UHGV virus genome: UHGV-1366603
Origin: a virus
DNA length: 64,000 nt
Strand: one strand, 5' to 3'
The position numbers were made by a program, and so were the translations under genes. Position 1 is the stretch's first letter. The number at the start of each line of letters is the position of its first letter. The notes beneath the pieces are model-generated. The model had not been told where the DNA came from. It searched no databases and saw only the letters and a program-made list of their open reading frames with translations. Shown here one piece after another: positions 4,307 to 44,449 of this stretch.

Positions 4307-4332
4307 TCAGATATATATTACCTAGAGGAGAG
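4307..4332 (+). promoter_or_regulatory. Copy 1 of recurring promoter-like motif TCAGATATATATTACCTAG(A/G)GGAGAG
   Basis: Near-identical motif also at 8362, 40079 and 44424, always upstream of a + strand gene and followed by a short hairpin. Confidence 0.5.
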
Positions 4333-4378
4333 CGAAATTTACATTCGCACTATTAGTTATAGCCGAAAGGAGGATTAG

Positions 4379-5230
4379 ATGTATCACCCGTATTATCTCC
4401 CGCACATTCTAGCAAATAGGGACCCTGGTTATTACTACGAACAAACAAAGGGGTCTTTTAATCGACTTTACATTCGCGAATTTAATACCGTCGAAATGAC
4501 GGATGACCAGTATCTGGAGTATCTAAAAGACCTTTACGGTTTTTCAAAATCGAATAAAGGTGACTTTGGACGTTCCGCAGTCATTAGGGTTGGTGAATAT
4601 CGTCATTTGGCTAAGCCTGTTACGTACCCTATTGTTACGCGTGCTTATACATCGGATAGGCAATATATTGCTGAACTAAAATTTCCTTTACGGATAGACG
4701 GGCCTCAAATTAGCGCTATAGAAGTAGAAATTCAACCAATTGCTGAAGACTATATTGAAGACTACTTCAAGAAAGCTAAAGAGGTACTCGAGGAGGGTTT
4801 AAGCTACTCTGAAGAAGGAACGATTTGTCTTCTCTCGTTACTCTCGAAGACTTATGTCACAGCAAATTTCCGTATCTCCGATTCTAGTAACTACAATACA
4901 CTTACTCCCTCTAAGACAAAACCGGTTTATTGGGACGATCGGTTAGTCGACAGACACCGTTGGCTTACTATCTTAGATAAAGTAAAATTCGAACCCCCTA
5001 AACACACCGAAGACAACTTTATTTTATTACACAACTTCGAACCGATCTATATCCCGACGCATTTTGAACAAGCCTTACGTCATCGATTGAAGTATGTGTT
5101 GGAATTACGGTACGGGAAGATAAACGGACTAACCTGTTCTGGTGAATTGAGTGAAGAAGAACGCGAGAAGATAAAAATCGTGTTTGATAAGTTGGTTGAA
5201 GATTACATTAAGAAGGAAGGACAATTATGA
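4379..5230 (+). CDS. Hypothetical protein
   Basis: 283-aa ORF with RBS aaggagga. Confidence 0.55.
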   Translation: MYHPYYLPHILANRDPGYYYEQTKGSFNRLYIREFNTVEMTDDQYLEYLKDLYGFSKSNKGDFGRSAVIRVGEYRHLAKPVTYPIVTRAYTSDRQYIAELKFPLRIDGPQISAIEVEIQPIAEDYIEDYFKKAKEVLEEGLSYSEEGTICLLSLLSKTYVTANFRISDSSNYNTLTPSKTKPVYWDDRLVDRHRWLTILDKVKFEPPKHTEDNFILLHNFEPIYIPTHFEQALRHRLKYVLELRYGKINGLTCSGELSEEEREKIKIVFDKLVEDYIKKEGQL

Positions 5231-5670
5231 AACCAAATTCTACTAACGGCATTATGTTACTTTGTGATTCTGAAACGTTAGCAAATCGTATTCGTGGTTT
5301 GATGGAAGTACGTTGGAAGCAAAAGGTTCGCGTGGATTACGCTGCTCCGTTTGTTCACGTTACTTGGTTACCAGAAGCTAGTGATTTCAAAGAAAGTATA
5401 ACCACGAGAAGAATTAAAGAATGGTTATCGGCAATCATTAATAAACAGATTACCGTTATCAATTTCCAACTTTTCGGGACTACTGAAGAACATGAAATCT
5501 TGAAACAGTGTTTAAGAGCGTTGGCTGTTTCCTTTTCTGTTCGTGGTAGCTGCTACACGGCTTACTTTATCGGTTCACTTGAACTGTTTAAGAATACGCT
5601 AATGCTTCAGCTAAAAGAAGACTACAAACTTTTAAATAAAATCGATTTTGAATTTCCAGGTATGATTTAA
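5227..5670 (+). CDS. Hypothetical protein
   Basis: 147-aa ORF; ATGA start-stop overlap with upstream gene. Confidence 0.5.
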   Translation: MKPNSTNGIMLLCDSETLANRIRGLMEVRWKQKVRVDYAAPFVHVTWLPEASDFKESITTRRIKEWLSAIINKQITVINFQLFGTTEEHEILKQCLRALAVSFSVRGSCYTAYFIGSLELFKNTLMLQLKEDYKLLNKIDFEFPGMI

Positions 5671-5680
5671 GGAGTATAAA

Positions 5681-6208
5681 ATGCATCAGAAATTAATGAC
5701 TAGTAACAAAGTTCTCCGTTTTAACCAACGTGAGTTAGAAGTTAGCGGAGAACGAATTGGTCGAGTTCGTAATCTTTTAACTGTGTTAGGTTTGGTCGGC
5801 GTTACATTTACATACACAGGTAAAATTCTTTACGCGACCTGGGCTTCATGCGAAAGTGACGCTACCTACGATAAAATTCTCGATGGTATTAAAGACGACT
5901 CAGTTTATTGTAATGTTTTCCGTGGCGTTTCGTACATCGTTGGTGATAAGTTAATGGATAAACTGAACGCCAAATACGGAGACGGTATTATCACCACCGT
6001 CTTCTTTGGTGGCGATATGCTAATCGTAACGAAAAAGGAAATTAGTCTGGAACTTCAAAGTGATATAAACTACGAACTTCAGATTGGCCCACAATTTAGC
6101 TGTAGAATTAATGTTGTTGTCGGTAAAGATGATTTCTACGATGAAGACGAGTCAGTAGAAATTCGAAAAATTGCGAGTCGCTACATGGATTCTATTTTCC
6201 GTAGTTAA
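5681..6208 (+). CDS. Hypothetical protein
   Basis: 175-aa ORF with RBS aaggag. Confidence 0.5.
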   Translation: MHQKLMTSNKVLRFNQRELEVSGERIGRVRNLLTVLGLVGVTFTYTGKILYATWASCESDATYDKILDGIKDDSVYCNVFRGVSYIVGDKLMDKLNAKYGDGIITTVFFGGDMLIVTKKEISLELQSDINYELQIGPQFSCRINVVVGKDDFYDEDESVEIRKIASRYMDSIFRS

Positions 6209-6264
6209 TAATCAAAAAGGGCTGTAAGTCCCCCACATAGTGTAAACCCCTAAAGGAGCATTAA

Positions 6265-6780
6265 ATGTCTGTAACAATCAACATGAATCTTTATACCAAA
6301 CGTGAACGTCAAATCTTGGCTAATCAGCCAGGCGTTACTACTATCGACGGTAAACCTATCGACCCATTAAAAGTCGTTGTCGCACACAACTGTTTCGAGA
6401 AAGACTGGGACATCATGTATTTCCGTTGCCGTTCTGTCGCCAACGCACTTACCCAGCTCTCTAACTATCATCCCGGTCCAGTATTAAAAGACTGGGTTTG
6501 GTTAGTCCCTAAAACACCTTCAGCGATTGAGTATCCGTCGGGTATGGTCTATATTCGTCCTGTCGCTTATCCAGAACGTTTAAAAGAATATCTGGAGGTT
6601 ATCTGGGACCGACCTCGTAAAGAGCTGGTGACGATTATCCGTTTACTTCAAATGTGCGATATCCCCAATGTTTCGAATCTGAAACTTACGTCTCGCGATG
6701 TTAACCAGGCTTACTGGGAACTGGAGTGGACTGAACCGAAATTCGAAAACACTAACCGCATCTTCTTGCACCGGGGGTAA
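6265..6780 (+). CDS. Hypothetical protein
   Basis: 171-aa ORF with RBS aaggag. Confidence 0.5.
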   Translation: MSVTINMNLYTKRERQILANQPGVTTIDGKPIDPLKVVVAHNCFEKDWDIMYFRCRSVANALTQLSNYHPGPVLKDWVWLVPKTPSAIEYPSGMVYIRPVAYPERLKEYLEVIWDRPRKELVTIIRLLQMCDIPNVSNLKLTSRDVNQAYWELEWTEPKFENTNRIFLHRG

Positions 6781-6782
6781 AA

Positions 6783-7064
6783 ATGTTAGATTGGTTGTTG
6801 GGCTTAATTAACTCACGTCAACAGGAGCTTTATAAAGAAAACACGCGATTGCGGCAGGAACTTAGTAACAATCGTCAGACCAAACGACAATTAATTCGGA
6901 TGGTAAAACAACAGGCGCGTTGTATACGAGATATTGATTATCAGTATCACCGTCTGAATACCTTAGACCCAACAACAAAAGCTTTAGGCAGTACGATTGG
7001 ACACGCACGGAAAGTCAGTCACGATGCGTTAGTTCGAATCGACACAATAGAAGAGAAACTGTGA
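6783..7064 (+). CDS. Hypothetical coiled-coil protein
   Basis: 93-aa ORF immediately after upstream stop; Q/R/L-rich heptad-like sequence. Confidence 0.45.
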   Translation: MLDWLLGLINSRQQELYKENTRLRQELSNNRQTKRQLIRMVKQQARCIRDIDYQYHRLNTLDPTTKALGSTIGHARKVSHDALVRIDTIEEKL

Positions 7065-7071
7065 TATAACC

Positions 7072-7095
7072 CCTCTCAGGAATTCCTGAGAGGGT
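7072..7095. promoter_or_regulatory. Perfect 10-4-10 palindrome (ccctctcagg-aatt-cctgagaggg)
   Basis: Stem-loop centred on GAATTC between genes, no downstream T-tract; possible operator or RNA structure. Confidence 0.35.
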
Positions 7096-7106
7096 GGAGT
7101 AACAAT

Positions 7107-7481
7107 ATGTCATTACTGTTATACAAATTCAGATGTTGGCTAGACACCTCGTTTAAAACCTGGGCTTGTGGTGAGAACGTCAGAACGATCGTTAAAGCAA
7201 CAGACTGGTATACCGAAATTGTGGTACTCCCTGACGGTAAACTAATTAATGTTCAGGTACGCAATATCACCGTCAGGATAGGTCGTAAAGGCGGTGCTAT
7301 TTTTCTTCCCGAACTCTATCTGGTTTCTGCATTGGAACTGAAGGCAGGACCGATGTTATTTGGTCGAACAGCGCAACACTATTTCGATACGCTTATTAAA
7401 CTTAGTAATAGTGTAAAGAAATTAGGTGAGTCGGTCCATAGATTTATTAAAGAAACTGAACGAACTACGGTGGAGATTTAA
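7107..7481 (+). CDS. Hypothetical protein
   Basis: 124-aa ORF. Confidence 0.5.
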   Translation: MSLLLYKFRCWLDTSFKTWACGENVRTIVKATDWYTEIVVLPDGKLINVQVRNITVRIGRKGGAIFLPELYLVSALELKAGPMLFGRTAQHYFDTLIKLSNSVKKLGESVHRFIKETERTTVEI

Positions 7482-7484
7482 AGG

Positions 7485-7793
7485 ATGGAAAGTAAAATCA
7501 CAAACACATCAGCACCTGAGAACATTGTCAACTATATTCTCAGTGGCGGATTGTTAGAAGACAACAAAGAAACGTGTGATAAACTCGTTTCTCAACTATT
7601 GCCGATTCGTTCAGAATACTGCGAAGTCGTTATCCTGGGTTCTGAGTATTGCGTACGTTCGTACTGTCGTCGTTTCGAAGCCTTACGCGTTCCGCGTACG
7701 TTAGGTGGCGTGATACTCTTAGTCTCTAACTTTCACAATGCACACGTTCGTGTTGCAACCTGGATTGCAAACGGTGGCGATAATGGTTTTTAA
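7485..7793 (+). CDS. Hypothetical protein
   Basis: 102-aa ORF with RBS aaggatgg. Confidence 0.5.
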   Translation: MESKITNTSAPENIVNYILSGGLLEDNKETCDKLVSQLLPIRSEYCEVVILGSEYCVRSYCRRFEALRVPRTLGGVILLVSNFHNAHVRVATWIANGGDNGF

Positions 7794-8079
7794 ACTAATT
7801 CGACTATTTAAACGTAAGAGATGTCCTGTATGTGAAATTAATGAAAAGATTATTGCTGAGCAAGACGAGCTAATCAAGCAACAAGATAAGTTGCTCACTG
7901 AAATGGGCGAACTCTATTTTAAACTTTGTGCTATTACCGAACTGATTAGTGAAGGTCTGTTAACGAAAGACGGTGGGTTAGAGTTGGTCAAGAAGGCAAC
8001 GATTCACTGTCGCCCTGAAGTAGAAAAATATAAACTTGAAGTGAAACGTGAAATGTGGGAGATTATTAATGAAGCGTGA
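7783..8079 (+). CDS. Hypothetical protein with CPVC motif
   Basis: Start trimmed from the track's 7738 to an internal ATG at 7783 (11-nt overlap with upstream stop). Confidence 0.4.
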   Translation: MVFKLIRLFKRKRCPVCEINEKIIAEQDELIKQQDKLLTEMGELYFKLCAITELISEGLLTKDGGLELVKKATIHCRPEVEKYKLEVKREMWEIINEA

Positions 8080-8350
8080 AACAGTTGTATTTTGTAGTAA
8101 TGGTGATGTGGTTTTGTTTCGTGGTAAGAAACGTATTCGTACGTTAGAATACCGAGAAGCAAAACGTTTTGTTGAAGAGTGCGCATGGTTAATGCATTAC
8201 GAAGGGAACTATCGTGCTATCTTAGAAGCGCCGCGTTTAGAACGTGCGGTTGCACAGATGGCAATAGGTAATCCTAAGAACTGTTACCTGGCACGTAAGC
8301 CAAAATACATACAACGCCTTTCGTTAGGCAGCTTTATTGCTGGATTTTAA
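8069..8350 (+). CDS. Hypothetical protein
   Basis: Start trimmed from 8048 to ATG at 8069 (MKRETVV...). Confidence 0.4.
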   Translation: MKRETVVFCSNGDVVLFRGKKRIRTLEYREAKRFVEECAWLMHYEGNYRAILEAPRLERAVAQMAIGNPKNCYLARKPKYIQRLSLGSFIAGF

Positions 8351-8361
8351 TAAAAATAATT

Positions 8362-8387
8362 TCAGATATATATTACCTAGGTGAGAG
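8362..8387 (+). promoter_or_regulatory. Copy 2 of recurring promoter-like motif
   Basis: TCAGATATATATTACCTAGGTGAGAG followed by inverted repeat gtgagag...ctctcac (8381-8402). Confidence 0.5.
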
Positions 8388-8431
8388 TTCAGTTACTCTC
8401 ACTTAACAAAACCATTTTAGGAGAATATACC

Positions 8432-8926
8432 ATGAACTTCACTAGACTTGATTACACTAACGAATTAGTTGACAAAGAAAAGTACAAATTCACTGTTGAC
8501 TTGGGTTACGGATTACTGGACGTAGAAAAAGATGTTCTGCACAAAGAATTCCGTGAGCAGTTCGGTGCTTTGTTCTACGCAGGTTTCCGCAGAAATACTA
8601 TCGATATCGGTTATAGCGCAACACCACATACCGACGAAGAAATGTTTAAGCTGGTAACACAGATTATCGGAACGCGTGGAGCCAAACGACTCAATTATTC
8701 CAACGAGCTTGTTTCGAAAGAACATTACAAGTTCACCGTTAGACTACCAGTTCACCTCACAGAAGAAGATAAGAACATCCTCTATAAAGCCCTTCAAACC
8801 GAATTCGGTAAAACGCTCAAAGTAGGGTTCCGTAATCGTAGTATCGATATCGGAATTAGTGTGGATGTGTGTAGTGACGATGACCTTTACGAATTAGTTT
8901 CGGAAGTTATCGGAAAACATCTCTAA
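8432..8926 (+). CDS. Hypothetical protein with internal tandem domain duplication
   Basis: Start at ATG 8432 (RBS aggaga). Two ~80-aa halves align: YTNELVDKEKYKFTVDLG...GFRRNTIDIGYS versus YSNELVSKEHYKFTVRLP...GFRNRSIDIGIS. Confidence 0.55.
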   Translation: MNFTRLDYTNELVDKEKYKFTVDLGYGLLDVEKDVLHKEFREQFGALFYAGFRRNTIDIGYSATPHTDEEMFKLVTQIIGTRGAKRLNYSNELVSKEHYKFTVRLPVHLTEEDKNILYKALQTEFGKTLKVGFRNRSIDIGISVDVCSDDDLYELVSEVIGKHL

Positions 8927-8974
8927 ACCTAAATTAACTCATTAACACTTCGACTTGTAAATAAGGAATAGAAT

Positions 8975-9448
8975 ATGTTTAGCTTAGAATTCAACAACAA
9001 CGTTCATGCCGCTTTCCATTCAGTAGAAAAAACCTATAAAATTAAAGATCTGTTTACTGGCAAAAGCGATGCTTTTTCGCTGATTAAAAATGGATGGAGA
9101 AAAAGCAAAGAGCTGAAACGTGATTCAAACCTTTACATTATTGAACGTTTAACTGTAACCGACAATCATGTCACTGCACGTTATGACTTTGTTGTAATGG
9201 ACGCTTTCATCCCGTTAGACAAACTGGTTATCTTGGCTGACAATGGGGAACGCTACGAGGCGGGCGAGAACGGTGAACGTTCATTTACTAATGACGGTAA
9301 ACTAAAAGTTCGCCATTCTGTAATGGCAGTTTGCTACGACGGTGAATGGCTAGGATCTCTGAATAAAGGATTGGATTTGATTGACGCCGATGATTTAGAA
9401 AATTTCGCCGATGTTTTCTCCAGTTATTTGTTTGAATATAAGTGGTGA
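8975..9448 (+). CDS. Hypothetical protein
   Basis: 157-aa ORF with RBS aaggaa. Confidence 0.5.
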   Translation: MFSLEFNNNVHAAFHSVEKTYKIKDLFTGKSDAFSLIKNGWRKSKELKRDSNLYIIERLTVTDNHVTARYDFVVMDAFIPLDKLVILADNGERYEAGENGERSFTNDGKLKVRHSVMAVCYDGEWLGSLNKGLDLIDADDLENFADVFSSYLFEYKW

Positions 9449-9453
9449 GTTCG

Positions 9454-9885
9454 ATGAGAAAAGAACTAAAATCAGAGTTACGCGATTACATTCGTAAATA
9501 CCCAGCCAGTATTCCGGTACTGGCTTCACTCTCTCTGTCGGGTATGGACCTTAATACCTTAACGGTAGAAAAATTCCACGAAGTGGTAAAATCGTCGTAT
9601 CAAATTGTTACCGATATGTCGGTGCGGAAACGTGCTGATTACCCAGACGGTGATTTCGGTACAGAGATGTTCACAGACTACGCAGTTGCGTATCTGATGG
9701 GACGTCACTTTATCGATAAACTCAATACGGTTGTAGAAGGAGAAACAGTCACGGAAATTGTCAATGCTTGGCAACAACGTATTGTGAGTGACGCTTACTG
9801 TCGTCAAGCCTTAAAGAAAATGTCGGCGGTAGCATTAACCAATGACCAACGTGCTTTAGAGTTCCTTAAGCACAATTACGAATAA
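9454..9885 (+). CDS. Hypothetical protein, paralog of 10746..11177
   Basis: ATG at 9454 chosen over the track's GTG at 9442. N-terminus RKELKSELRDYIRKYP..VLA parallels LKDDIRNYIRNNP..VLA in the paralog. Confidence 0.5.
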   Translation: MRKELKSELRDYIRKYPASIPVLASLSLSGMDLNTLTVEKFHEVVKSSYQIVTDMSVRKRADYPDGDFGTEMFTDYAVAYLMGRHFIDKLNTVVEGETVTEIVNAWQQRIVSDAYCRQALKKMSAVALTNDQRALEFLKHNYE

Positions 9886-9906
9886 TTTACCAAAAGGAAA
9901 AGTACC

Positions 9907-10668
9907 ATGTTTAATATTGAGATTACCCCACTCGTTAAAACTGAAATCCGTCCGGTTCCTGAAGCACAGTTACTCGATCAACTTTATCATGTATTCCTGG
10001 ATAAAGGTGTACATTTCCGTGTAGAGCAGCTCAATGACGAAAGCATCGTATTCTACTGGACTCACAGCAACGATTATCTTTGCGATACTATCGCGAAAGA
10101 AATCGGCGAGTTACTCAACCCAGCAGAAGGTACCACGAACGCCTGGGCGGAACCTACCGAGACCGAACAACCGAAAGTCGAAGAACAGCAGAAAGACGAA
10201 CCACACGTCCTCTGGTACGAAGGTAAGAAGATTAAGGAAATTAAAGAAGCGTTAGAGACCCTCTATCCTGACGATTTAGGCATTTATTCGGATAACAGCA
10301 AGCTCGTCGTTCGATTGAAGAAAGACGATCGTAATCTCATGGAAGAAATTAGTTCTATCGTTAAGCTGATCGATAATGATGCCGTTCGACTTATTTCGAT
10401 TCATGGTATCGGAAAAGATACCGCTGATGAACTCATGCGTGTGGCTGTTCACGAACACAAGGAGAAAATTCATCAATCCGTTTACAAAGGCGAAACGCTC
10501 ACCGTTTTGATCGACAACGATGTTGAGGTTTTCAAATCATTAACGAACTTTTTGCGAATTGTTTCAACGGATTCTTATATCGAAAAAACACGTGCCCTGC
10601 TTCTCGAAAAGCTTTTTAATATTTACAACAAAGATTGCGATTGTCCTAATTGTCAAAAACGTCGTTAA
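9907..10668 (+). CDS. Hypothetical protein with C-terminal CDCPNC motif
   Basis: 253-aa ORF; acidic central region. Confidence 0.5.
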   Translation: MFNIEITPLVKTEIRPVPEAQLLDQLYHVFLDKGVHFRVEQLNDESIVFYWTHSNDYLCDTIAKEIGELLNPAEGTTNAWAEPTETEQPKVEEQQKDEPHVLWYEGKKIKEIKEALETLYPDDLGIYSDNSKLVVRLKKDDRNLMEEISSIVKLIDNDAVRLISIHGIGKDTADELMRVAVHEHKEKIHQSVYKGETLTVLIDNDVEVFKSLTNFLRIVSTDSYIEKTRALLLEKLFNIYNKDCDCPNCQKRR

Positions 10669-10692
10669 TTAACGACGTTCTAAATTCATCTA

Positions 10693-10725
10693 AAGGGGTG
10701 GTAAACCACCCCTCTATTATTGTAT
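10693..10725 (+). terminator. Intrinsic terminator
   Basis: Hairpin aggggtgg-taaa-ccacccct followed by T-rich tract. Confidence 0.55.
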
Positions 10726-10745
10726 TTACCTAAAGGAGTATTAAA

Positions 10746-11177
10746 ATGTTTTTCGTATTAAAAGATGATATCCGTAACTACATTCGTAACAATCCGATTG
10801 CTCTAGGCGTTTTAGCAGGTTTCTGTCGTCCAAATACTGACTTCGATTTAGTTAAGTTAGAAGAATATCAGGAAATTGTGAACACTACCTACATGCAGAT
10901 CTGTAGCTGGGGTAAACGTCCTCGTGAGGAGTACCCTGTTGGTGAGTTAGGTGACACCATGCACCGTGACCAGAACCTGATGCACGAATTCGTTGAATAC
11001 ACACTGGAAAATCTTAACTATCCACTCCTGGTCGACACTGTACCAGAAATGGTTGACGAATGGTTAAAACGTGTTTATAGCGATCCTACCGCCAACAAGT
11101 TACTGAGCCAGATGTCACAAACTTCTCGTGACATCGACACTCGTACGCTGATGTACTTAGCGCACAACGTACGTTAA
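10746..11177 (+). CDS. Hypothetical protein, paralog of 9454..9885
   Basis: 143-aa ORF with RBS aaggag; conserved N- and C-terminal blocks with the paralog. Confidence 0.5.
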   Translation: MFFVLKDDIRNYIRNNPIALGVLAGFCRPNTDFDLVKLEEYQEIVNTTYMQICSWGKRPREEYPVGELGDTMHRDQNLMHEFVEYTLENLNYPLLVDTVPEMVDEWLKRVYSDPTANKLLSQMSQTSRDIDTRTLMYLAHNVR

Positions 11178-11186
11178 TCTCTCTCC

Positions 11187-11240: not shown

Positions 11241-11344
11241 TATTTTGACACCACTTTACTTACACCCCACCCGACTATTCCTATGCTGGCTGAGGGATGT
11301 AAAACGACCTCTTAAACCTTTTTTACTTACTGTGAGTTAACGCG

Positions 11345-37362: not shown

Positions 37363-38625
37363 GTGACTACTGCTTATCAAGTGCGGCCTGACAGCGCTTT
37401 TGGCTTCTCTCGTGAGACCCGTACCTGGGGAGCCATCGACGTCACGCAACCCTTAGAAACCTTGTGTTCTGATTACCATATTTTCGAAGTCGGTCTGAGT
37501 GCGCTTGGTAAAGACTATACGTTAATTAGCCAATATCACCTCGCTGACTTACAAAACCGTACCGATACATTACAAGACTGGCTGAATGAAAAAGCCGGTG
37601 TGGTTATCTCTGCGTTGAAAGACGGTTTACCGACGTTAGAGTTTGATTGGGCACACTATCAATCGATTAATGCTGATGTTCCAGTAGAAACCTATCTGTG
37701 TCCTCCTGGTTATCACTACAGTCAAGAATTCAGTATAGACGATGCTGACGACGTTGTGATTGTTTGCGAAGATAAATGGAAAGACAAATACCGTAACGGG
37801 GTGCTGTATAACATCAACGGTCAATGGGTACCACATCAGTCGGATACTGTTGGTGTACGTTTACCGGGTGCAGGTAAGATAGTACGTCGTGCAGGGACAC
37901 CGGATATCGGGTGCATGGTCTTTAGTAAATTGGGGAATGTTAAAACGTACCCCATTGCTAACTTGACCTTAAACAAACTCGACACCACCCGTGACTATTA
38001 TTCCACGTTAATGATTTCTTTACCGGAATCTATTACAGGTAAAACCGTGGGGTTTGTTATCGGGGGACTGATACACTGGTTACCGGTTACTGGGTACTTC
38101 TCCGACAAAGCCATTATGGTGTCGCTACCGAACTTTGACGTTGCGCGTACTGTGTTAGAAACACGTCGCTATTACGATTGGGACAGTATTGGTGTTGGCG
38201 ATTTATCATCGCCGACCAGCGTACAGCGTATCCGCAACCCAGAAACGTTAAAGGCGCTTTTAACCCACGAGTCGTCGTTTATCTTTACGGTGGATAATCC
38301 GTATCTGGAAGAAGAAGTTGTGGGGGTTTCTCACAACGCTATCTGGGGACGTTTATACCTTAAAGATCCTACTGACCCTGACGGGGAAAAGCAGCTGGGG
38401 TATCTGTTAAACCGCTTCGGTAAAACCGTTGCCTATTGGCCGACGTGGGAAGAAGGGGAATGGGTATTTAACACCACGGAGTTCGACAGTCAAAACTACG
38501 TGTTCCGTGAAGCCCGCTGGTATAACCAGAAGAAAATTAACGATGCACAGGCAATCGTAGGGCCTTTCGGTCCCTGGGAAAAAGTCTATTTGGAAATGCA
38601 TCGTTTCCGTGCAAGAAAAAAATAA
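37363..38625 (+). CDS. Hypothetical protein (420 aa)
   Basis: Track ORF starts at 37147 inside the 1440-aa gene; trimmed to an in-frame GTG at 37363 with RBS gaggaaaagag. Confidence 0.45.
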   Translation: MTTAYQVRPDSAFGFSRETRTWGAIDVTQPLETLCSDYHIFEVGLSALGKDYTLISQYHLADLQNRTDTLQDWLNEKAGVVISALKDGLPTLEFDWAHYQSINADVPVETYLCPPGYHYSQEFSIDDADDVVIVCEDKWKDKYRNGVLYNINGQWVPHQSDTVGVRLPGAGKIVRRAGTPDIGCMVFSKLGNVKTYPIANLTLNKLDTTRDYYSTLMISLPESITGKTVGFVIGGLIHWLPVTGYFSDKAIMVSLPNFDVARTVLETRRYYDWDSIGVGDLSSPTSVQRIRNPETLKALLTHESSFIFTVDNPYLEEEVVGVSHNAIWGRLYLKDPTDPDGEKQLGYLLNRFGKTVAYWPTWEEGEWVFNTTEFDSQNYVFREARWYNQKKINDAQAIVGPFGPWEKVYLEMHRFRARKK

Positions 38626-38629
38626 GTAA

Positions 38630-38671
38630 CCTCCTACCCTCTTAGAGGGTAGGAGTAGCACGTTTTTTTTT
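38630..38671. terminator. Bidirectional intrinsic terminator
   Basis: Hairpin ctcctaccctc-ttag-agggtaggag followed by a 10-T run. Confidence 0.7.
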
Positions 38672-38675
38672 TCAC

Positions 38676-38885
38676 TTAGTCTTTTTTGTAGACGATCGCG
38701 TTACCGTGCAGTTTGTTGTTACCGGAAATACCGATAACTTTAAACGCTTCACCGCCGATCTTTTCAGCTTCGACAGCCAGCTTAGCAGTAACGTCGTCTA
38801 CGGTGTCACCGAAAGCGCTTACGTTACCAATTTTCTTGAACTCTTCAGGAATGTGTTCAGCAGAAGAGAATTCTTTAATAGCCAT
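38676..38885 (-). CDS. DUF1471 (YhcN/BhsA/McbA-family)-like small protein lacking a signal peptide
   Basis: KKIGNVSAFGDTVDDVTAKLAVEAEKIGGEAFKVIGISGNNKLHGNAIVYKKD matches the conserved core pattern of enterobacterial DUF1471 proteins (from memory); RBS ggagag; no hydrophobic N-terminus. Confidence 0.55.
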   Translation of the reverse strand: MAIKEFSSAEHIPEEFKKIGNVSAFGDTVDDVTAKLAVEAEKIGGEAFKVIGISGNNKLHGNAIVYKKD

Positions 38886-39084
38886 AGCTACTCTCCAGTT
38901 AAAGAAAGGAAGGACTGTATCGTGTTACAACCAAAGCATAAGATAGCTCCTCCCCGAAGGGAGGAGTGAGTGCGCGAAAAAAGTGGCCTGCTTAACTAAA
39001 CGATGAGGTTTAAGAAAAGTGTTGATAAGAAGCTTACCAACGTCAGGTCACAATATATAATACCAACGTAAGAAAAAGGGGAAA

Positions 39085-40050
39085 TTAGCGTGGGCCTGAA
39101 GTTGGGCCATGTACACCGTCGTGGATGTGTACGCTGAAGGTAATACCGGAAATCACCGCATCCTTAACTGTAAAGACACCCACACCTTCACCCGTACCAC
39201 CGTATTTGAAGTTCTTAGCAACTTCCAAATTACCGGTGAACATCGCTTCATTACCCTCTTGCTTAAAGTTCGGCGTTTTATACGTTGTGGAACCGGAGGC
39301 TTCGGTTAGCCACGTTTCTGTTTTAAAGGTAACCGATTTCGACGCTTCGGTATTCCGAACTTCGCATTTCTCATTAATCGTTTTCGTTTCCAGGTTAATC
39401 GAACGTTTTGCGTAAATGAACGCATCTTCTTTGTTGATGTTCACTTTCGAGAGCATCGCGTTCTCAAAACCTAAATCGTCTTCCACCGAGTTAATGTAAT
39501 ACTTATTCCCTTTATGGTCAACGCACTGCCACGACCCGTTAGCGTTATCGAATTGGAATAACCACGCCGCTTTCTCCCCGTTCACCATACTTGTTCTTAG
39601 GGTAACGTGTTTGTCAATCGTTGAGACGTTTAACACATACGCGTTCGACAAGTCATCCGCCATCTGGTTTTCAGGGTCAGCAGACCACGCGTAAACCGCA
39701 TCCTCTAATCGCTTAACGTTAGCGAAATTCAAATCAATCCAAAAATAAATATCGGTTTGCCCTAGACGTAGCAAGATAACATAATCTTCACGCTTAACGT
39801 CTGGGGAATTAATTCGATTGGAATTAAACTTCCACCACTTTGCGGTAATCGTGTTACCGGTTTTAATCGTTAGGTTGTCGGTAGCACCCCCGGCTTCGTG
39901 TACCTTTTCAGCGGTTGAGGAAACTGACTGTACAACGGTAGGGTTCGCAAAGTTGGTTTCAATGGGAATAACACTCACCCGATCCGTACCACGAGGTTTA
40001 TCTTCCGCGACGATACCAATCGAGAAAAAGTCAACGCTGGATTTCTCCAT
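39085..40050 (-). CDS. Hypothetical protein (321 aa), possibly structural
   Basis: Long ORF with beta-rich composition; no recognisable motif. Confidence 0.5.
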   Translation of the reverse strand: MEKSSVDFFSIGIVAEDKPRGTDRVSVIPIETNFANPTVVQSVSSTAEKVHEAGGATDNLTIKTGNTITAKWWKFNSNRINSPDVKREDYVILLRLGQTDIYFWIDLNFANVKRLEDAVYAWSADPENQMADDLSNAYVLNVSTIDKHVTLRTSMVNGEKAAWLFQFDNANGSWQCVDHKGNKYYINSVEDDLGFENAMLSKVNINKEDAFIYAKRSINLETKTINEKCEVRNTEASKSVTFKTETWLTEASGSTTYKTPNFKQEGNEAMFTGNLEVAKNFKYGGTGEGVGVFTVKDAVISGITFSVHIHDGVHGPTSGPR

Positions 40051-40078
40051 TAGGTCGTTCCTTAGATCGGAAATGTAA

Positions 40079-40130
40079 TCAGATATATTTTACTTAGGTG
40101 AGTAGGGGCTGAAGTGCGAATTCAGCCCCT
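40079..40130 (+). promoter_or_regulatory. Copy 3 of recurring promoter-like motif plus downstream hairpin
   Basis: TCAGATATATTTTACTTAGGTGAG followed by inverted repeat aggggctgaa-gtgcgaa-ttcagcccct. Confidence 0.45.
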
Positions 40131-40438
40131 ATGGGCACGTTTCTTTCGAAACGGAGTTACCATGTGATTAGGAGACAGACCAATGTCTACTGAGAAGAAA
40201 AGCGGATTGGACGAAGTCATCGAATTGTTCAAACGCTACAACCCGGCTATTCCTCGGTAATCATAGTATTACTTAAAATTTACAGATTGTCCCTTTATTC
40301 TGCTACTCGGGATACCGGTAGGGGGTAGGGGGCAATATGTATACGGATATAAATAGCGGAGGTATACGTAGTATACCGACATACTCTTCCCAGAGGAACG
40401 TAGTGACTTCCTTATTCCTTTTTAGGAGAATAAACCTC

Positions 40439-41173
40439 ATGAGAGAATTATTAGACGATATCTTTACCAACACCAGTTTAGAACTTTCTTCTACAGTGGT
40501 TAACGAACTAATAAAACAATCGCAACCTGCTAAGTTAGTCACTGTCAGGGTAGTTAACCCTAAAGATTATCTAGGCTGCGATATCATAAACGGTACGATC
40601 GATGAGTACGCAATTGGTATTTACGCCGACTGGGTCTTCTTTGTTCTTAATACCGAAACCGGTGTCATGTTAACCTACACGATGAGTAGTGATGTCGAAC
40701 ACGAAGTTGTAGCGAAACATATTCGCCACATTGCCAGCACGCCTACCTTTTCCGACGTTACGTTTATTGGGGGAAGCACTATGCTGACGTTATTCTCTTA
40801 CTTCCCACTGTTTAGACATGGGGTAGGGTTAATCAAGCATGTAGAAAACCTTCCCGCTGATGTAGAATTAACGTTGCTCGGTCGGGACATTAGTCTTTAT
40901 CCCTTAAAAGATAACGGTAAGTTATACGGTTTACGTATCTATGTTTCTTGGTTAGAGGGATACCGCGTTATTGAACTGATTGCATCGGATTTAACAAAAC
41001 AAATCCCAGAGGTGGAAACGATTTCTAAAGCCACCCACCTGGTTGAGATTAACCCAGACGATCCGTTTTTACAGTATCACAATGAAATTGCCCTTCGTGG
41101 TATCGCTGCCGTAAAAGGGTGGGGGTGTGCTGAGATTACGAAGGGGTATCTGCTGTTAATTAAAACCGCGTAA
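40439..41173 (+). CDS. Hypothetical protein, member 1 of a tandem four-gene paralog family
   Basis: Start at ATG 40439 (RBS aggag). Shares C-terminal G-W...G..LLF-type motif with the next three genes (weakest in this member). Confidence 0.5.
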   Translation: MRELLDDIFTNTSLELSSTVVNELIKQSQPAKLVTVRVVNPKDYLGCDIINGTIDEYAIGIYADWVFFVLNTETGVMLTYTMSSDVEHEVVAKHIRHIASTPTFSDVTFIGGSTMLTLFSYFPLFRHGVGLIKHVENLPADVELTLLGRDISLYPLKDNGKLYGLRIYVSWLEGYRVIELIASDLTKQIPEVETISKATHLVEINPDDPFLQYHNEIALRGIAAVKGWGCAEITKGYLLLIKTA

Positions 41174-41198
41174 GTAAAAACCTAAAGGAGAAAATATC

Positions 41199-41753
41199 AT
41201 GTTTCAAACTGAACTGAAAATTGAAATTATCCAAACCCTTGAAAAAGGCGTAGGCGAACATTTCTTTAGCTGTCCTTATACCGTACTGACCAATACCATT
41301 ATTCAGCCAGGCGCGATGATAGTAGGGGTGAGGGTACAAGCTGTGGAGGAAACCCCGCTGCGTCGCAACATCACTCGTAAAAACCATATCCCATTTAGAA
41401 CGGGTTTTACAGATTACTTTCAGAGCTTACTGAAAGATAGCGTTTGGAAAACGGGCAGCTTCTTCCACGAAGGGAAGACGTCCACGCTGGTTTATAAAGA
41501 AAATACCAAGTATCTGGTTGATTTTCTCTTAGCGCGGCAATACGATTTCTTTCCATCCCCTTCTGGCACCACCCCTGATAATCCAGGTAAGTTATTAAAC
41601 CAAGACGAAGCCGAAGCACTCTTTACAAAACTTCGGAATGAGCAGTGCGATGTTGACGACTGGGAAACATTGATCGCGGTCGCTAAAGCCCACGGTTGGT
41701 ATACTGTACGTAAACTCGGCCAGCAGTTGTTGTTCTTAGCTTATAATGTTTAA
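41199..41753 (+). CDS. Hypothetical protein, tandem paralog family member 2
   Basis: RBS aaaggag; C-terminus AHGWYTVRKLGQQLLFLAYNV. Confidence 0.5.
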   Translation: MFQTELKIEIIQTLEKGVGEHFFSCPYTVLTNTIIQPGAMIVGVRVQAVEETPLRRNITRKNHIPFRTGFTDYFQSLLKDSVWKTGSFFHEGKTSTLVYKENTKYLVDFLLARQYDFFPSPSGTTPDNPGKLLNQDEAEALFTKLRNEQCDVDDWETLIAVAKAHGWYTVRKLGQQLLFLAYNV

Positions 41754-41781
41754 GTAACGAAAACCCTAAAGGAGAGTAAAA

Positions 41782-42933
41782 ATGCGAAATATTATTTCTA
41801 AACCAGGACATGTCAAAATCCTAAAAGAACTGATGGACAGATGCTATAATCAGACTTGGCCTCTGCCAAGCTTAACCATCGAGTCTTCATTACAACGTGA
41901 GTTGTTTGGTTATAACTTGGGCTGCTGTGTACTTACTGAATACAATGAGATTATCGCGCCTGTCGATATCTGTACTTACGATGAAGAAATTGAAGGTTAC
42001 AAGTTCGCGGTTTACACAAATTCTGGACTAAATTACCGTAAACTCGTTGTTAGAGAAAAGAGTAGCAACCGGAAGATTATGTTTAAAGTCTTCCCAAGTG
42101 GTAAAGTCAGTAATTTATGTTTTCAGCTTGAGCAAGTGCCCTTTCACGGTGCGGACATTTTAACTAAACCAGAACTCGCGTTATTAAGCGGGTTAATCGG
42201 CTTTGAAGCAAAAACCATCAAAGTTGAGCAGGAACTTACACAAAACGATTTCGGCTCAAGTTGGTACGAAAGTTTCTTCCGCTACGAAATGTTAAGTGAT
42301 AAAGCTATCAAACTCACTTACCGTTCTACCGACGATCTCGTTTACCACATTTTAATTAGCGGCGAACCCCACCTGATTATTGAAGACAAAGGAGAAAATC
42401 AAATGTCTGCCTTAAAAGACGAATTAGCCCAATTCATTCGTGACGTTGAAGAGAAAAGCAAGAGCGATCATATTTTCTCACAACGCTATCCTGAACTTAT
42501 TGACGAAACCACCGATAGTGTTGTCGATGGTATACGCATTTTCCCAAGTGGTCTTGCAATTTACCGACTGCCTAGCGTTAACCAGCTTAAAGTCATGGAA
42601 ATGCTAAAAGACGTTTTAGCAGAAGCGGGTTGGGAATATCGCTTCGATTGCAATTTCGAAGGGATGGCGTTATTCGTTACAAAGAAAAACTATACCTTGT
42701 CAATCGATCTGCCTAAAAGTCAATACTACAGTTTCTTCCCAAAAGCGTATGACCGCACTGAAAAAGAACCTGCGATGTTACTTGATGCGGCAGAATCCAA
42801 TACGTTAATGATGCATTTGCGGTCAATTGACAAAAAGTTAAATACTAGTCATTTAACGACGATCGGTAAAGATTACGGTTGGAAATCTGTCGAACCGTAC
42901 GGCAGTCAGCTGCTGTTTGTTGCTGACCTTTAA
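41782..42933 (+). CDS. Hypothetical protein, tandem paralog family member 3
   Basis: RBS aaaggag; C-terminus DYGWKSVEPYGSQLLFVADL. Confidence 0.5.
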   Translation: MRNIISKPGHVKILKELMDRCYNQTWPLPSLTIESSLQRELFGYNLGCCVLTEYNEIIAPVDICTYDEEIEGYKFAVYTNSGLNYRKLVVREKSSNRKIMFKVFPSGKVSNLCFQLEQVPFHGADILTKPELALLSGLIGFEAKTIKVEQELTQNDFGSSWYESFFRYEMLSDKAIKLTYRSTDDLVYHILISGEPHLIIEDKGENQMSALKDELAQFIRDVEEKSKSDHIFSQRYPELIDETTDSVVDGIRIFPSGLAIYRLPSVNQLKVMEMLKDVLAEAGWEYRFDCNFEGMALFVTKKNYTLSIDLPKSQYYSFFPKAYDRTEKEPAMLLDAAESNTLMMHLRSIDKKLNTSHLTTIGKDYGWKSVEPYGSQLLFVADL

Positions 42934-43000
42934 TAAGTGAAAATACACTTTCTCTAACTGCCGCGCTTTAGTCGCGGCTTTTGTTAAGAAGGAAATAGAA

Positions 43001-43774
43001 ATGAAAGTCCATTTAGACGATATCTTTAAAACCGAACCGTATATGATCGAAGGTCCGCTAACGTCCCTACTATTCGCCGATAGACTAGATCGTACGTTGC
43101 AATTACAATCGGTCGAATCTGCACCGATTAACGATGTAGAGCGCTACGAGCGTATCAACCATACGCGGGGTGAGTATCGTCGCTATAAGCCAAACTCACT
43201 AACCATCAAACTTTGGAAAGTAAGCACAGGTAAAGTATTAACTTATCGCGCCGTTGGTAGTTATTACATTCAACAGGCCAAAGAGTGGTTAGAAAAAGTT
43301 AAAGAACTGAACTTCGATCTACTGAGCAAAAAACTGCGCGATCATAACGCCAGTTTGCCGATACGTAATTATTTCGCCACGATTGAAAATAGTCGTTGCT
43401 TCGTTTCCAGCAAGTCTATGATCTTACCCGGGGCTGATGTTCAAACAACACTGAAAGATGTGGTTGTGAAGAAAATCTTTCATGAATCTGAACACGTTGG
43501 ATTTCGTATCTATTTAACGCACAAGAGGCCATTTACCGTGATTCATGTTGTTACCGCACCCGAAGGCTCAGCAGTCGTACGTGAACTTCCTGACGCACGT
43601 GACCGCAGCCCTAATGAGCCGCTTTACTTAATGTCAGGAACAAAATCAGAATCTTTGATGTCCCGTTACAGCATGGTTGATGTTGTTGATACTGCTATGA
43701 AGTTAGGTTGGAAAGAAGTACAGCAGCACGGCAAACAATTGCTGTTTATCGCAGATGTAAATCTCAATAACTAA
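43001..43774 (+). CDS. Hypothetical protein, tandem paralog family member 4
   Basis: C-terminus KLGWKEVQQHGKQLLFIADV. Confidence 0.5.
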   Translation: MKVHLDDIFKTEPYMIEGPLTSLLFADRLDRTLQLQSVESAPINDVERYERINHTRGEYRRYKPNSLTIKLWKVSTGKVLTYRAVGSYYIQQAKEWLEKVKELNFDLLSKKLRDHNASLPIRNYFATIENSRCFVSSKSMILPGADVQTTLKDVVVKKIFHESEHVGFRIYLTHKRPFTVIHVVTAPEGSAVVRELPDARDRSPNEPLYLMSGTKSESLMSRYSMVDVVDTAMKLGWKEVQQHGKQLLFIADVNLNN

Positions 43775-43786
43775 AGAGGTGGTACC

Positions 43787-44365
43787 GTGTACCGATTAAT
43801 AGAAATGAGAAAAGACGTTTGGTTGGAAAACCTCGTCGATGGGGAGCTTGAGGGAATAGAGCTTTCCTTACCAGAGAGAGCGGACACGGTATTGGCCTTT
43901 CTGGTAAAACAGGCAGACCGTGAACCGGTAGGAATCTTCACTGTGGACTATAAAGATCCACGAGGAATTCATTTACGGAACATTTGCAGTGGTTTGGAAA
44001 ACTTACCGGCTAATCCGTTCTTAAACTACGCAAAACGTAAACTCCAAACGGGACAACACCTCTGGGTAACGTTATCGCCTGACGTTAGGATCATACGTGA
44101 CGATTACTCGGCGTTTGTACAGGCAACGAAAGTCAGTCTGTATAACCCGAACGCAGAGCGTACCGATATGCCGTTTATAATTACCTTAGAAGACGATGGA
44201 ACGCAAGAAGGTATTGAGGCAATTACGGAATTAGTAAATTCTTATCCGGTTGCCACTATTGAGTTAGAAAACCCAAACCGATTACCGTTGGGTGACCTGC
44301 TCGAATGGATCGAACTGAATACAGAATTCTTAATCAATTCTCGTCAGTATCGATTCGACGTTTAA
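43787..44365 (+). CDS. Hypothetical protein
   Basis: GTG start with RBS aagaggtgg; 192 aa; followed by terminator. Confidence 0.45.
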   Translation: MYRLIEMRKDVWLENLVDGELEGIELSLPERADTVLAFLVKQADREPVGIFTVDYKDPRGIHLRNICSGLENLPANPFLNYAKRKLQTGQHLWVTLSPDVRIIRDDYSAFVQATKVSLYNPNAERTDMPFIITLEDDGTQEGIEAITELVNSYPVATIELENPNRLPLGDLLEWIELNTEFLINSRQYRFDV

Positions 44366-44369
44366 CAAC

Positions 44370-44400
44370 GGTGGGGTGTAAGCCCCACCTTTTATTTTTT
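44370..44400 (+). terminator. Intrinsic terminator
   Basis: Hairpin ggtgggg-tgtaa-gccccacc followed by a T-run. Confidence 0.7.
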
Positions 44401-44423
44401 GTTCGCTAACATTAAAAATAATC

Positions 44424-44449
44424 TCAGATATATATTACTCAGGTGAGAG
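44424..44449 (+). promoter_or_regulatory. Copy 4 of recurring promoter-like motif
   Basis: TCAGATATATATTACTCAGGTGAGAG followed by an imperfect inverted repeat; precedes the secreted-protein array. Confidence 0.5.

What the first reader, a model, noticed from the sequence alone, without database searches (positions are those of the whole stretch)
4307..44449. Recurring ~26-nt promoter-like motif followed by a hairpin
TCAGATATAT(A/T)TTAC(C/T)(T/C)AG(G/A)(G/T)GAG occurs at 4307-4332, 8362-8387, 40079-40105 and 44424-44449, with a degenerate fifth copy at 62163-62181. Each lies in an intergenic region upstream of a + strand gene, usually just after an intrinsic terminator, and each is followed within a few nt by a short inverted repeat. 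This degree of conservation is unlike generic sigma70 promoters and suggests a phage-specific promoter class or regulator binding site with a structured 5' leader.
Basis: seen in the sequence. Interest (0 to 1): 0.6.

Follow-up and report, generated by a model that had tools for sequence, protein, structure and literature searches.

The report
Jumbo-phage early promoters with 5' hairpin
The repeated motif is most likely the early promoter read by the RNA polymerase that SPN3US/phiKZ-type giant phages carry inside their virions, an already known kind of signal; in this group of phages it is followed by a stem-loop at the predicted first bases of the transcript.

Summary
Four copies of TCAGATATATWTTACYYAGRKGAG lie on the + strand at 4307, 8362, 40079 and 44424, against none expected by chance. 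All are intergenic, and each has a hairpin just downstream.

The window comes from an unsequenced relative of Salmonella phage SPN3US and Erwinia jumbo phages, which are related to phiKZ. The core ATATATATTAC, six bases, then an invariant G has the layout of the mapped early promoters of phiKZ (TATATTAC-N6-G) and AR9 (AAATATATATTAT-N6-G+1). Those promoters are read by the virion-packaged multisubunit RNA polymerase (vRNAP).

The same 23-mer is almost the only DNA shared with SPN3US, Huxley and phiEaH2, and it occurs almost only in jumbo-phage contigs. Close relatives of the window encode the vRNAP.

- **Hairpin:** it starts at predicted +1 to +4 in 45 of 46 distinct promoters. It shows compensatory changes and G·U pairs, so it most likely forms in the RNA. 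It is not systematic in phiKZ.
- **Fifth copy:** the "degenerate" copy is a second promoter variant, AGATAGATATTAT. It is conserved at the orthologous SPN3US site, has no hairpin, and has a further copy at 52688.

Verdict: a new member of a known kind.

The parts
4294..4333 (+). Class A early promoter 1, positions -34 to +6. Core TCAGATATATATTACCTAGAGGAG at 4307-4330; predicted start G at 4328.
   Evidence: spacing rule.
4329..4351 (+). Stem-loop at the 5' end of the predicted transcript (core GCGAA-ATTTACA-TTCGC). The leader runs to the ATG at 4379.
   Evidence: Orthologues show the compensatory change GCGAA/TTCGC to GTGAA/TTCAC.
8349..8388 (+). Class A early promoter 2. Core at 8362-8385; predicted start G at 8383.
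   Evidence: Of 8 kb searched, this stretch was the only part that matched other phage genomes.
8383..8400 (+). 5'-terminal stem-loop GAGAGT-TCAGTT-ACTCTC. Leader runs to the ATG at 8432.
   Evidence: -8.4 kcal/mol, z = -3.2.
40066..40105 (+). Class A early promoter 3. Core at 40079-40102 (TTTTAC variant); predicted start G at 40100.
40103..40131 (+). Long 11-bp G+C-rich stem-loop TAGGGGCTGAA-GTGCGAA-TTCAGCCCCTA, followed by a 25-aa ORF at 40183-40260 and then gene 40337-41173.
   Evidence: -19.1 kcal/mol. In relative L022 the stem is identical while the loop differs.
44411..44450 (+). Class A early promoter 4. Core at 44424-44447; predicted start G at 44445.
44445..44464 (+). 5'-terminal stem-loop GAGAGTTA-AGAT-TAACTCTT with a G1·U20 wobble pair. 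Leader runs to the ATG at 44495.
62155..62178 (+). Class B variant promoter TTAGATAGATATTATTCAGGTGTA. Predicted start G at 62176, no hairpin, 24-nt leader to the ATG at 62200.
   Evidence: An orthologous class B site lies in SPN3US at 184044.
52688..52711 (+). Second class B-like site, TTAAATAGATATTATCATTAGGGC.
   Evidence: The orthologous SPN3US site at 174954 also shares the downstream sequence.
4258..4296 (+). Intrinsic terminator (13-bp stem plus T-run) that closes the upstream operon just before promoter 1.
44370..44399 (+). Intrinsic terminator (8-bp stem plus T-run) just before promoter 4.

Best explanation
The motif is the early promoter of an SPN3US-type jumbo phage. It is most likely recognised by the virion-packaged multisubunit RNA polymerase (vRNAP) that enters the cell with the DNA.

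The promoter spans about -34 to +6: an A/T-rich block (ATTaaAAAT.aTtT), then CAGATATATATTAC, six bases (YTAGGT), then G+1 AGAGT. Transcription is inferred to start at that G, at window positions 4328, 8383, 40100 and 44445.

The first ~20 nt of the RNA fold into a stem-loop whose base is at or within three bases of the 5' end. An unstructured linker follows, then a strong Shine-Dalgarno sequence and the first of a run of small genes with no PHROG functional annotation. The typical leader is about 52 nt.

My preferred role for the stem-loop is to shield the 5' end of immediate-early mRNAs from host decay that depends on a free 5' end (RppH and RNase E). That step is inference only.

A second variant, class B (AGATAGATATTAT-N6-G), has the same register but no hairpin and a short leader. 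In SPN3US it precedes the non-virion RNA polymerase genes, among others.

What is shown: motif recurrence, conservation across genera, the identical core and spacing to mapped promoters, covariation in the hairpin, and the presence of vRNAP genes in close relatives.

What is inferred: the start site, the polymerase responsible, the early timing, and the function of the hairpin.
For: **Recurrence.** Four exact copies against none expected, all on the + strand and all intergenic.

**Source phage.**
- An RNase H-like protein is 63-66% identical to those of Erwinia Asesino/phiEaH2 and SPN3US.
- Gene order matches SPN3US.
- IMG/VR contigs 77-95% identical in DNA to the window encode a 76-77% identical homologue of SPN3US gp241. 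gp241 is a vRNAP subunit packaged in the head.

**Conservation.**
- Megablast of 8 kb against 50,697 phage records hit only the motif-plus-hairpin stretch, and only in jumbo phages of Salmonella, Erwinia, Escherichia and Proteus.
- The 23-mer pattern found 47 exact matches in IMG/VR, essentially all in 107-246 kb jumbo-phage contigs or fragments of them.

**Match to mapped promoters.**
- AR9 early promoters are AAATATATATTAT-(6N)-G+1, and phiKZ and phiR1-37 start 6 nt after the consensus.
- phiKZ sites read TATATTAC-N6-G in all 6 TATATTAC sites, and the 2 TATATTAT sites also carry the G.
- A published review states that every RNAP-encoding jumbo phage has such an AT-rich motif centred near -10.

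**SPN3US whole genome.** There are 7 class A and 13 class B sites, with one site counted in both. All are on the + strand and all but one are intergenic; chance gives 0-2.

**Host promoters.** Sigma-70-like sites are not enriched, or are depleted: 30 against 34 expected, and 21 against 32.

**Hairpin.**
- 74% of 46 distinct promoters have a stem starting at +1 to +3 with -5 kcal/mol or better, against 17-23% of random 32-mers, despite lower G+C.
- Mean z against shuffles is -2.26.
- In a 13-sequence subset, 92% of cells are paired, with 13 double changes against 5.8 expected and 0 of 500 shuffles as high.
- A G3-to-T change is matched by C-to-A in the partner in SPN3US 65412.
- The sense strand folds better than the antisense in 35 of 46 (p = 4e-4), and G1·U20 is present in 13 of 13.
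- Complementarity falls from 81% at +1 to 50% at -1.

**Downstream genes.** They are small, and 7 of the 10 scanned match no PHROG family.
Against: - No 5'-end mapping exists for this phage or, in the papers I could search, for any SPN3US-type phage. The start site, the polymerase and the early timing all rest on analogy with phiKZ and AR9.
- The window itself holds no RNA polymerase gene; the vRNAP is shown only in close relatives.
- The 46 promoters are partly orthologous, so the statistics overstate independence.
- The -6 to +3 segment (YTAGGTGAG) is far more conserved here than in phiKZ or AR9. This is unexplained and could reflect an extra factor.
- The protective role of the hairpin is untested. 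Class B promoters and most phiKZ early promoters do without it.
- The motif contains TATATT, a passable sigma-70 -10 element, so some host-polymerase use cannot be excluded.
Confidence: 0.8

Rival explanations
1. The inverted repeat acts at the DNA level as part of promoter recognition or melting by the phage polymerase. The precedent is the DNA-hairpin promoters of the phage N4 virion RNA polymerase. On this view it is not an RNA structure.
For: The repeat abuts the conserved promoter, and its 5' arm (GAGAG/GAGAT) is itself conserved. In the 8362 group the complementarity extends to -2 (GTGAGAG/CTCTCAC). N4 vRNAP is a known precedent for hairpin promoters (cited, reference B27).
Against: The hairpin lies downstream of the predicted start, not upstream as in N4. 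A G·U wobble closes the stem in 13 of 13 sequences of one geometry, and 29 of 328 pairs are G·U; on the other strand these would be A·C mismatches. The sense strand folds better in 35 of 46. Pairing drops to chance at -1. The related phiKZ promoters lack the repeat.
Confidence: 0.1
2. The hairpin is a recognition tag on class A early mRNAs rather than a passive shield. It might be bound by a phage or host protein for export from the early infection vesicle, for ribosome recruitment or for timed decay. Alternatively it could be a promoter-proximal pause or attenuation signal.
For: The hairpin is specific to class A and absent from class B. Leader length is uniform, with a median of 52 nt. T-rich sequence often follows the stem. 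Early transcription in phiKZ-type phages occurs inside a vesicle from which mRNA must leave.
Against: Loop sequences and lengths are not conserved: there are 42 distinct hairpins with loops of 3-11 nt. This argues against sequence-specific recognition. The U-run is short and is partly used in the stem, so it makes a poor terminator. There is no direct evidence for any binding factor.
Confidence: 0.15
3. The motif is a strong host sigma-70 promoter (TATATT as the -10 element, with an A/T-rich UP-like element), or the binding site of a phage regulator laid over one, rather than a vRNAP promoter.
For: TATATT lies at -13 to -8, and the consensus scan picked TTAATA-16-TATATT at 8347-8374. The upstream block is A/T-rich.
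Against: There is no -35 consensus. Invariance at CAG (-20 to -18) and YTAGGTGAG (-6 to +3) is not explained by sigma-70. Sigma-70-like sites are at or below chance across the window. The core and spacing equal those of promoters shown to be rifampicin-independent and vRNAP-dependent in phiKZ and AR9.
Confidence: 0.05

Closest known systems
phiKZ early (vRNAP) promoters: an AT-rich consensus containing TATATTAC, with 28-32 sites per genome
   Same: The core TATATTAC is identical, and a conserved G lies 6 nt downstream. There is a T/A-rich upstream segment. The sites lie before clusters of small early genes. The phage family encodes a virion-packaged multisubunit RNA polymerase.
   Different: Here the conserved block is longer and stricter: CAGATATATATTACYTAGGTGAG is nearly invariant. 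The -6 to +3 segment is conserved. A +1 stem-loop is nearly universal here, against 3 of the 8 phiKZ sites examined.
Bacillus phage AR9 early promoters, AAATATATATTAT-(6N)-G+1, mapped by dRNA-seq and primer extension
   Same: ATATATATTA is shared letter for letter, with the same 6-nt spacer to a G start. The final T of the AR9 core matches the class B variant here.
   Different: AR9 has uracil-containing DNA and is not a nucleus-forming phage. No 5' hairpin is reported in the parts of the AR9 paper I searched. The flanks differ.
5'-terminal stem-loops that stabilise bacterial and phage mRNAs, such as the ompA leader and the T7 phi10 leader (from my own knowledge of the field, not checked here)
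   Same: A stem begins within 0-3 nt of the 5' end, ahead of an unstructured linker and a strong ribosome-binding site.
   Different: Here the 5' arm is also the conserved initially transcribed part of the promoter, and the element is repeated at every class A promoter across several phage genera. The stabilising effect has not been tested.
Phage N4 virion RNA polymerase hairpin promoters
   Same: A virion-delivered polymerase is used for early genes, and an inverted repeat lies next to the promoter.
   Different: N4 uses a single-subunit enzyme and a DNA hairpin upstream of the start. Here the enzyme is multisubunit, the repeat lies downstream of the predicted start, and it carries G·U pairs.

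Membership tests
vRNAP early promoters of phiKZ-related (RNAP-encoding) jumbo phages | A highly conserved AT-rich element of about 10 nt centred near -10 | tested here: met
   ATATATATTAC lies at -17 to -7 and is invariant or nearly so in 51 instances. It is identical to the phiKZ TATATTAC and to the AR9 ATATATATTA.
vRNAP early promoters of phiKZ-related (RNAP-encoding) jumbo phages | A conserved start nucleotide 6 nt downstream of the element | tested here: inconclusive
   An invariant G sits exactly 6 nt after TTAC or TTAT in all class A sites and all 15 class B sites. The helix base coincides with it. Whether transcription starts there cannot be tested from sequence.
vRNAP early promoters of phiKZ-related (RNAP-encoding) jumbo phages | Recurs many times per genome, in intergenic DNA, co-oriented with the operons it precedes | tested here: met
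   The window has 4 class A and 2 class B sites, all intergenic and on the + strand. SPN3US has 7 class A and 13 class B sites with one site counted in both; all are on the + strand and all but one are intergenic.
vRNAP early promoters of phiKZ-related (RNAP-encoding) jumbo phages | The phage encodes a virion-packaged multisubunit RNA polymerase | tested here: met
   No such gene lies in the window. Contigs 77-95% identical to it encode a gp241 homologue at 76-77% identity. SPN3US gp42/218/240/241/244 are head-packaged vRNAP subunits.
vRNAP early promoters of phiKZ-related (RNAP-encoding) jumbo phages | Transcripts appear within minutes, independently of host RNA polymerase (rifampicin) and of new protein synthesis | not testable with these tools
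   This needs infection experiments. It is known for phiKZ and AR9.
mRNA-stabilising 5'-terminal stem-loops | The stem begins no more than a few unpaired nucleotides from the 5' end | tested here: met
   Given the predicted start, the stem begins at +1 in 34, +2 in 4, +3 in 5 and +4 in 2 of 45 folded leaders.
mRNA-stabilising 5'-terminal stem-loops | Removing the stem shortens mRNA half-life in a 5'-end-dependent way | not testable with these tools
   This needs mutagenesis and decay assays.
Rfam RNA families | A match at gathering score to any curated family | tested here: not met
   No matches anywhere in the 64 kb window.

The most novel reading that the evidence does not exclude
In SPN3US-type phages the +1 stem-loop is a dedicated tag that marks one subclass of vRNAP transcripts (class A, immediate-early host-takeover genes). 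On this reading the tag governs export from the early infection vesicle, selective translation or timed turnover, and so separates these transcripts from class B transcripts, which include the non-virion polymerase genes. This would be a two-tier early programme, encoded in promoter variant plus leader structure, that has not been described.
Probability: 0.15. Interest if true: 0.7.

Novelty: new member of a known kind. Interest (0 to 1): 0.35.

Why it matters
The result marks the likely early operons and transcript starts of an unsequenced jumbo phage, and of the whole SPN3US/Erwinia group, without any experiment.

It also gives a strict 40-nt consensus with natural variants (class A against class B, T/G at -14 and C/T at -7). 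Such a consensus is useful because the vRNAP has no known sigma-like factor and its promoter recognition is not understood.

The covarying +1 stem-loop is a concrete, testable handle on how immediate-early phage mRNAs survive or are handled before the phage nucleus forms.

Practically, the element is a compact promoter-plus-leader cassette for expressing genes from engineered jumbo phages.

Tried and rejected
- **Short AT-rich patterns in IMG/VR.** Class B was assessed on the complete SPN3US genome instead.
- **Consensus folding of mixed hairpins.** RNAalifold on an ungapped alignment of 32 promoters gave no structure, because stem and loop lengths differ. I replaced it with a subset of one geometry and with per-sequence folds.
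- **Known RNA families and tRNAs.** Rfam and tRNA scans of the window found nothing. tRNA scans of L007 and L038 were empty; in L007 the start after a long leader is probably an ATG about 105 nt downstream.
- **Literature.** The Ceyssens 2014 phiKZ paper and the supplements of the two phiKZ start-site papers are not held. I therefore read the phiKZ spacing directly from its genome. No held paper prints the motif string, but published logos are images, so this does not show that the motif is undescribed.
- **Other weak matches.** Sites inside coding regions at 20648 (-), 4673 (-), 39050 and 41514 are at chance level and were rejected.
- **Sigma-70 reading.** Considered and set aside, as explained under the rival explanations.


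Full report
**1. The observation**

A search for TCAGATATATWTTACYYAGRKGAG with up to three mismatches returns exactly these four sites, all on the + strand. None appeared in 100 dinucleotide-preserving shuffles.

Each of the four lies in a short gap before a + strand gene, and a hairpin follows each. Strong intrinsic terminators precede two of them, at 4258-4286 and 44370-44389.

**2. Where the window comes from**

Three very large paralogous virion proteins, radical-SAM proteins, an SbcC-like protein and an RNase H-like protein match PHROG families of giant phages.

- The RNase H-like protein is 63-66% identical to those of Erwinia phages Asesino and phiEaH2 and of Salmonella phage SPN3US.
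- The local gene order is the same as in SPN3US.
- No phage record shares DNA similarity over 8 kb, except for one short stretch described in section 3.
- IMG/VR metagenome contigs of 107-225 kb are 77-95% identical to the window.

The window is therefore from an unsequenced member of the SPN3US/Erwinia branch of phiKZ-related jumbo phages.

SPN3US carries two sets of RNA polymerase beta-type genes. Its gp42, 218, 240, 241 and 244 form a polymerase packaged in the head. Four of the contigs that are close relatives of the window encode a gp241 homologue at 76-77% identity.

**3. The motif outside the window**

The only part of window 4000-12000 that megablast found in 50,697 phage genomes is the motif plus hairpin at about 8348-8407. 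It occurred at several places per genome in jumbo phages of Salmonella, Erwinia, Escherichia and Proteus.

An exact scan of IMG/VR with CAGATATATWTTACNNAGRKGAG gave 47 matches in 42 loci.

- All were from contigs of 107-246 kb, among them contigs whose lengths match SPN3US, Huxley and phiEaH2, or from short fragments of such phages.
- The one exception is a match that looks like chance, in a 43-kb contig.

Aligned on the motif, 51 distinct instances show conservation from about -34 to +6: ATTaaAAAT.aTtT-CAGATATATATTAC-YTAGGT-GAGAGT. The upstream A/T block was not used to select the instances, so its conservation is independent evidence.

**4. What it is**

A review of jumbo-phage polymerases states that every such phage has a conserved motif before its presumed early operons. 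The motif is about 10 AT-rich bases centred near -10, and wherever transcripts were profiled it proved to be the early promoter read by the virion polymerase.

- For AR9 the mapped consensus is AAATATATATTAT-(6N)-G+1.
- For phiKZ and phiR1-37 the start is 6 nt after the consensus.
- I read the first 50 kb of phiKZ directly. All 6 TATATTAC sites, and the 2 TATATTAT sites, have a G exactly six bases downstream.

The motif here, ATATATATTAC-YTAGGT-G, has the same core and the same spacing. The predicted starts are 4328, 8383, 40100 and 44445.

Sigma-70-like sites are at or below chance in the window (30 against 34.4; 21 against 32.3), while terminators are enriched. This fits a phage that does not rely on host promoters.

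The genes behind the four sites are small. Seven of the ten scanned have no PHROG family, and the other three match families of unknown function. That is typical of early accessory genes. The minus-strand block of virion genes (about 16.6-40 kb) has no copy.

**5. Genome-wide check in a relative**

I assembled the complete SPN3US genome from five fetches.

- Fifteen sites lie within six mismatches of the consensus, against one or two in shuffles.
- All are on the + strand, and all lie in intergenic gaps before + strand genes (checked against the annotation tables).
- Seven are near-perfect (class A).

**6. A second variant: the 'fifth copy'**

The other SPN3US sites share a variant core, AGATAGATATTAT. 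It has G instead of T at -14 and T instead of C at -7. With one mismatch allowed, this core occurs 13 times in SPN3US, all on the + strand, against about 0.35 by chance.

The window has two such sites, at 62157 and 52690.

- The orthologous SPN3US gaps carry the same core, at 184044 and 174954, although the flanking proteins are only about 64% identical.
- All 15 class B sites keep the G at the predicted start. Only 4 have a 5' hairpin, which is the background rate, and several have short leaders, 24-30 nt where I measured them.
- In SPN3US, class B sites precede genes annotated as RNA polymerase beta subunits that are not among the five virion subunits (15768-19299 and 29014-33356). By elimination these are the non-virion polymerase.
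- Only the virion enzyme is available to transcribe those genes if host polymerase is not used, so class B is probably also read by it. This last step is inference.

**7. The hairpin**

Per-sequence folds:
- Folding +1 to +32 of 54 distinct promoter instances gave a mean of -6.4 kcal/mol and a mean z of -2.26 against dinucleotide shuffles.
- Among the 46 class A instances, 45 fold.
- Of those 45, the stem begins at +1 in 34, at +2 in 4, at +3 in 5 and at +4 in 2.
- There are 42 different hairpin sequences.
- 74% meet 'start no later than +3 and -5 kcal/mol or better', against 17% of random 32-mers and 23% of random 32-mers that begin with GAG. The leaders are poorer in G+C, 36% against 46%.

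Covariation:
- Positions +4 to +8 pair through several pair types, including A-U, U-A, G-C and C-G.
- In a 13-sequence subset with one geometry (8 bp, 4-nt loop), 92% of cells are paired.
- Double changes number 13, against 5.8 in shuffles, with 0 of 500 shuffles as high.
- Sliding the partner by one to three columns drops pairing to 39-54%.
- GCGAA/TTCGC in the window corresponds to GTGAA/TTCAC in orthologues.
- The rare G3-to-T change in SPN3US 65412 is matched by C-to-A in its partner.
- At 40079 the 22 stem bases are identical to those of a relative, while the loop differs.

RNA or DNA:
- The closing pair is G1·U20 in 13 of 13 sequences.
- G·U pairs make up 29 of 328 pairs.
- The sense strand folds better than the antisense in 35 of 46, Wilcoxon p = 4e-4.

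Where the helix ends:
- Complementarity is 81-100% at +1 to +6 and falls to 50% at -1.
- The helix therefore ends where the transcript is predicted to begin.

Breadth and caveat:
- In phiKZ only 3 of the 8 sites examined have such a stem, so the hairpin seems specific to the SPN3US branch.
- The instances are partly orthologous, so they are not statistically independent.

**8. The rest of the leader**

Class A leaders are uniform in length, with a median of 52 nt and a range of 44-71. They end in a strong Shine-Dalgarno sequence, often AAGGAG, and many carry a (T)CGACYAT box between the hairpin and the ribosome site.

Loops vary in sequence and length. That argues for a generic structural role rather than a specific binding site.

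**9. How it most likely works**

On infection, the injected virion polymerase binds the -34 to +6 element and starts at the G. The nascent RNA folds at once into a stem-loop that leaves little or no single-stranded 5' end.

From established work on bacterial mRNA decay (my own knowledge, not tested here), RppH and the 5' sensor of RNase E need a few unpaired 5' nucleotides, and 5'-terminal stems such as the ompA and T7 phi10 leaders prolong mRNA life. I therefore favour a protective role for the first wave of phage mRNAs.

My estimates are about 0.8 for the promoter identity and about 0.45 for this role of the hairpin. The rivals are a DNA-level promoter element, a recognition or export tag or pause signal, and a host sigma-70 promoter.

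**10. Comparison and novelty**

The element passes every membership feature of the vRNAP early-promoter family that sequence can test. The start site and the early, rifampicin-independent expression cannot be tested here.

It is a new member of a known kind. Three details may be new, and I did not find them in the papers I could search:
- the near-universal +1 stem-loop in this branch, supported by covariation;
- the split into a hairpin-bearing class A and a hairpin-less class B;
- the strong conservation of -6 to +3.

Published logos are figures that I could not read, so the motif itself may well have been shown before.

Interest is moderate. A specialist would expect the promoter. The hairpin and the two classes are useful leads, not surprises.

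Noticed in passing
Its orthologue in SPN3US (174954) also conserves about 25 nt of downstream sequence, including an AAAGGAG.
   Followed up: partly
window 23500-37295 (- strand): Three adjacent giant paralogous virion proteins of 1727, 1394 and 1440 aa (PHROGs 7449, 8078, 7557), plus a 401-aa relative at 22260-23465. They share domains and are syntenic with SPN3US 144286-158671.
   Followed up: partly
window 17772-20001 (- strand): Two adjacent radical-SAM proteins (440 and 307 aa), conserved in SPN3US at 140024-142139. Their function in the phage is unknown.
   Followed up: no
window 1-20000 and 38000-57999: Sigma-70-like promoter matches are at or below the shuffle expectation (30 against 34.4; 21 against 32.3, about 2 sd low). 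Terminator-like hairpins are nearly twice the expectation, and several are symmetric and score on both strands (for example 4258-4286, 14726-14750, 16548-16574, 55525-55546, 56135-56162).
   Followed up: partly
window 40100-40260: The leader of the third promoter is atypical. It has an 11-bp G+C-rich stem (-19 kcal/mol) and then a 25-aa ORF (40183-40260) before the first sizeable gene at 40337. In relative L022 the stem is identical but the loop differs.
   Followed up: partly
class A leaders in L001, L010, L011, L023, L024, L027, L037, L045, L048 and others: A recurring box (T)CGACYAT, or GACTTGTTAAC in the window's own clade, lies between the 5' hairpin and the Shine-Dalgarno sequence. Leader length is tightly held near 52 nt. 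Its role is unknown.
   Followed up: partly
window 4001-6000, 8001-10000, 40001-44000: G+C dips to 0.39-0.42, against 0.45-0.51 in the virion-gene block, exactly over the gene clusters that follow the class A promoters.
   Followed up: no
window 360-1643: A tail-fibre protein whose C-terminal ~110 aa match the distal tips of T4-type long tail fibres in many PHROG families. This suggests an exchanged receptor-binding module.
   Followed up: no
L049 (phiKZ) 45568: The phiKZ early promoter before the nuclear-shell gene (PHIKZ054) is one of the few phiKZ sites with a stable stem starting at the predicted +1 (-8.8 kcal/mol).
   Followed up: no
L046 (SPN3US) around record position 109893, against window 4307: Promoters at what look like orthologous positions can differ in class. 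The window site at 4307 is class A, while the apparent SPN3US counterpart is class B, yet the two hairpin loops share GAAATTTAC(A/G)TT.
   Followed up: no
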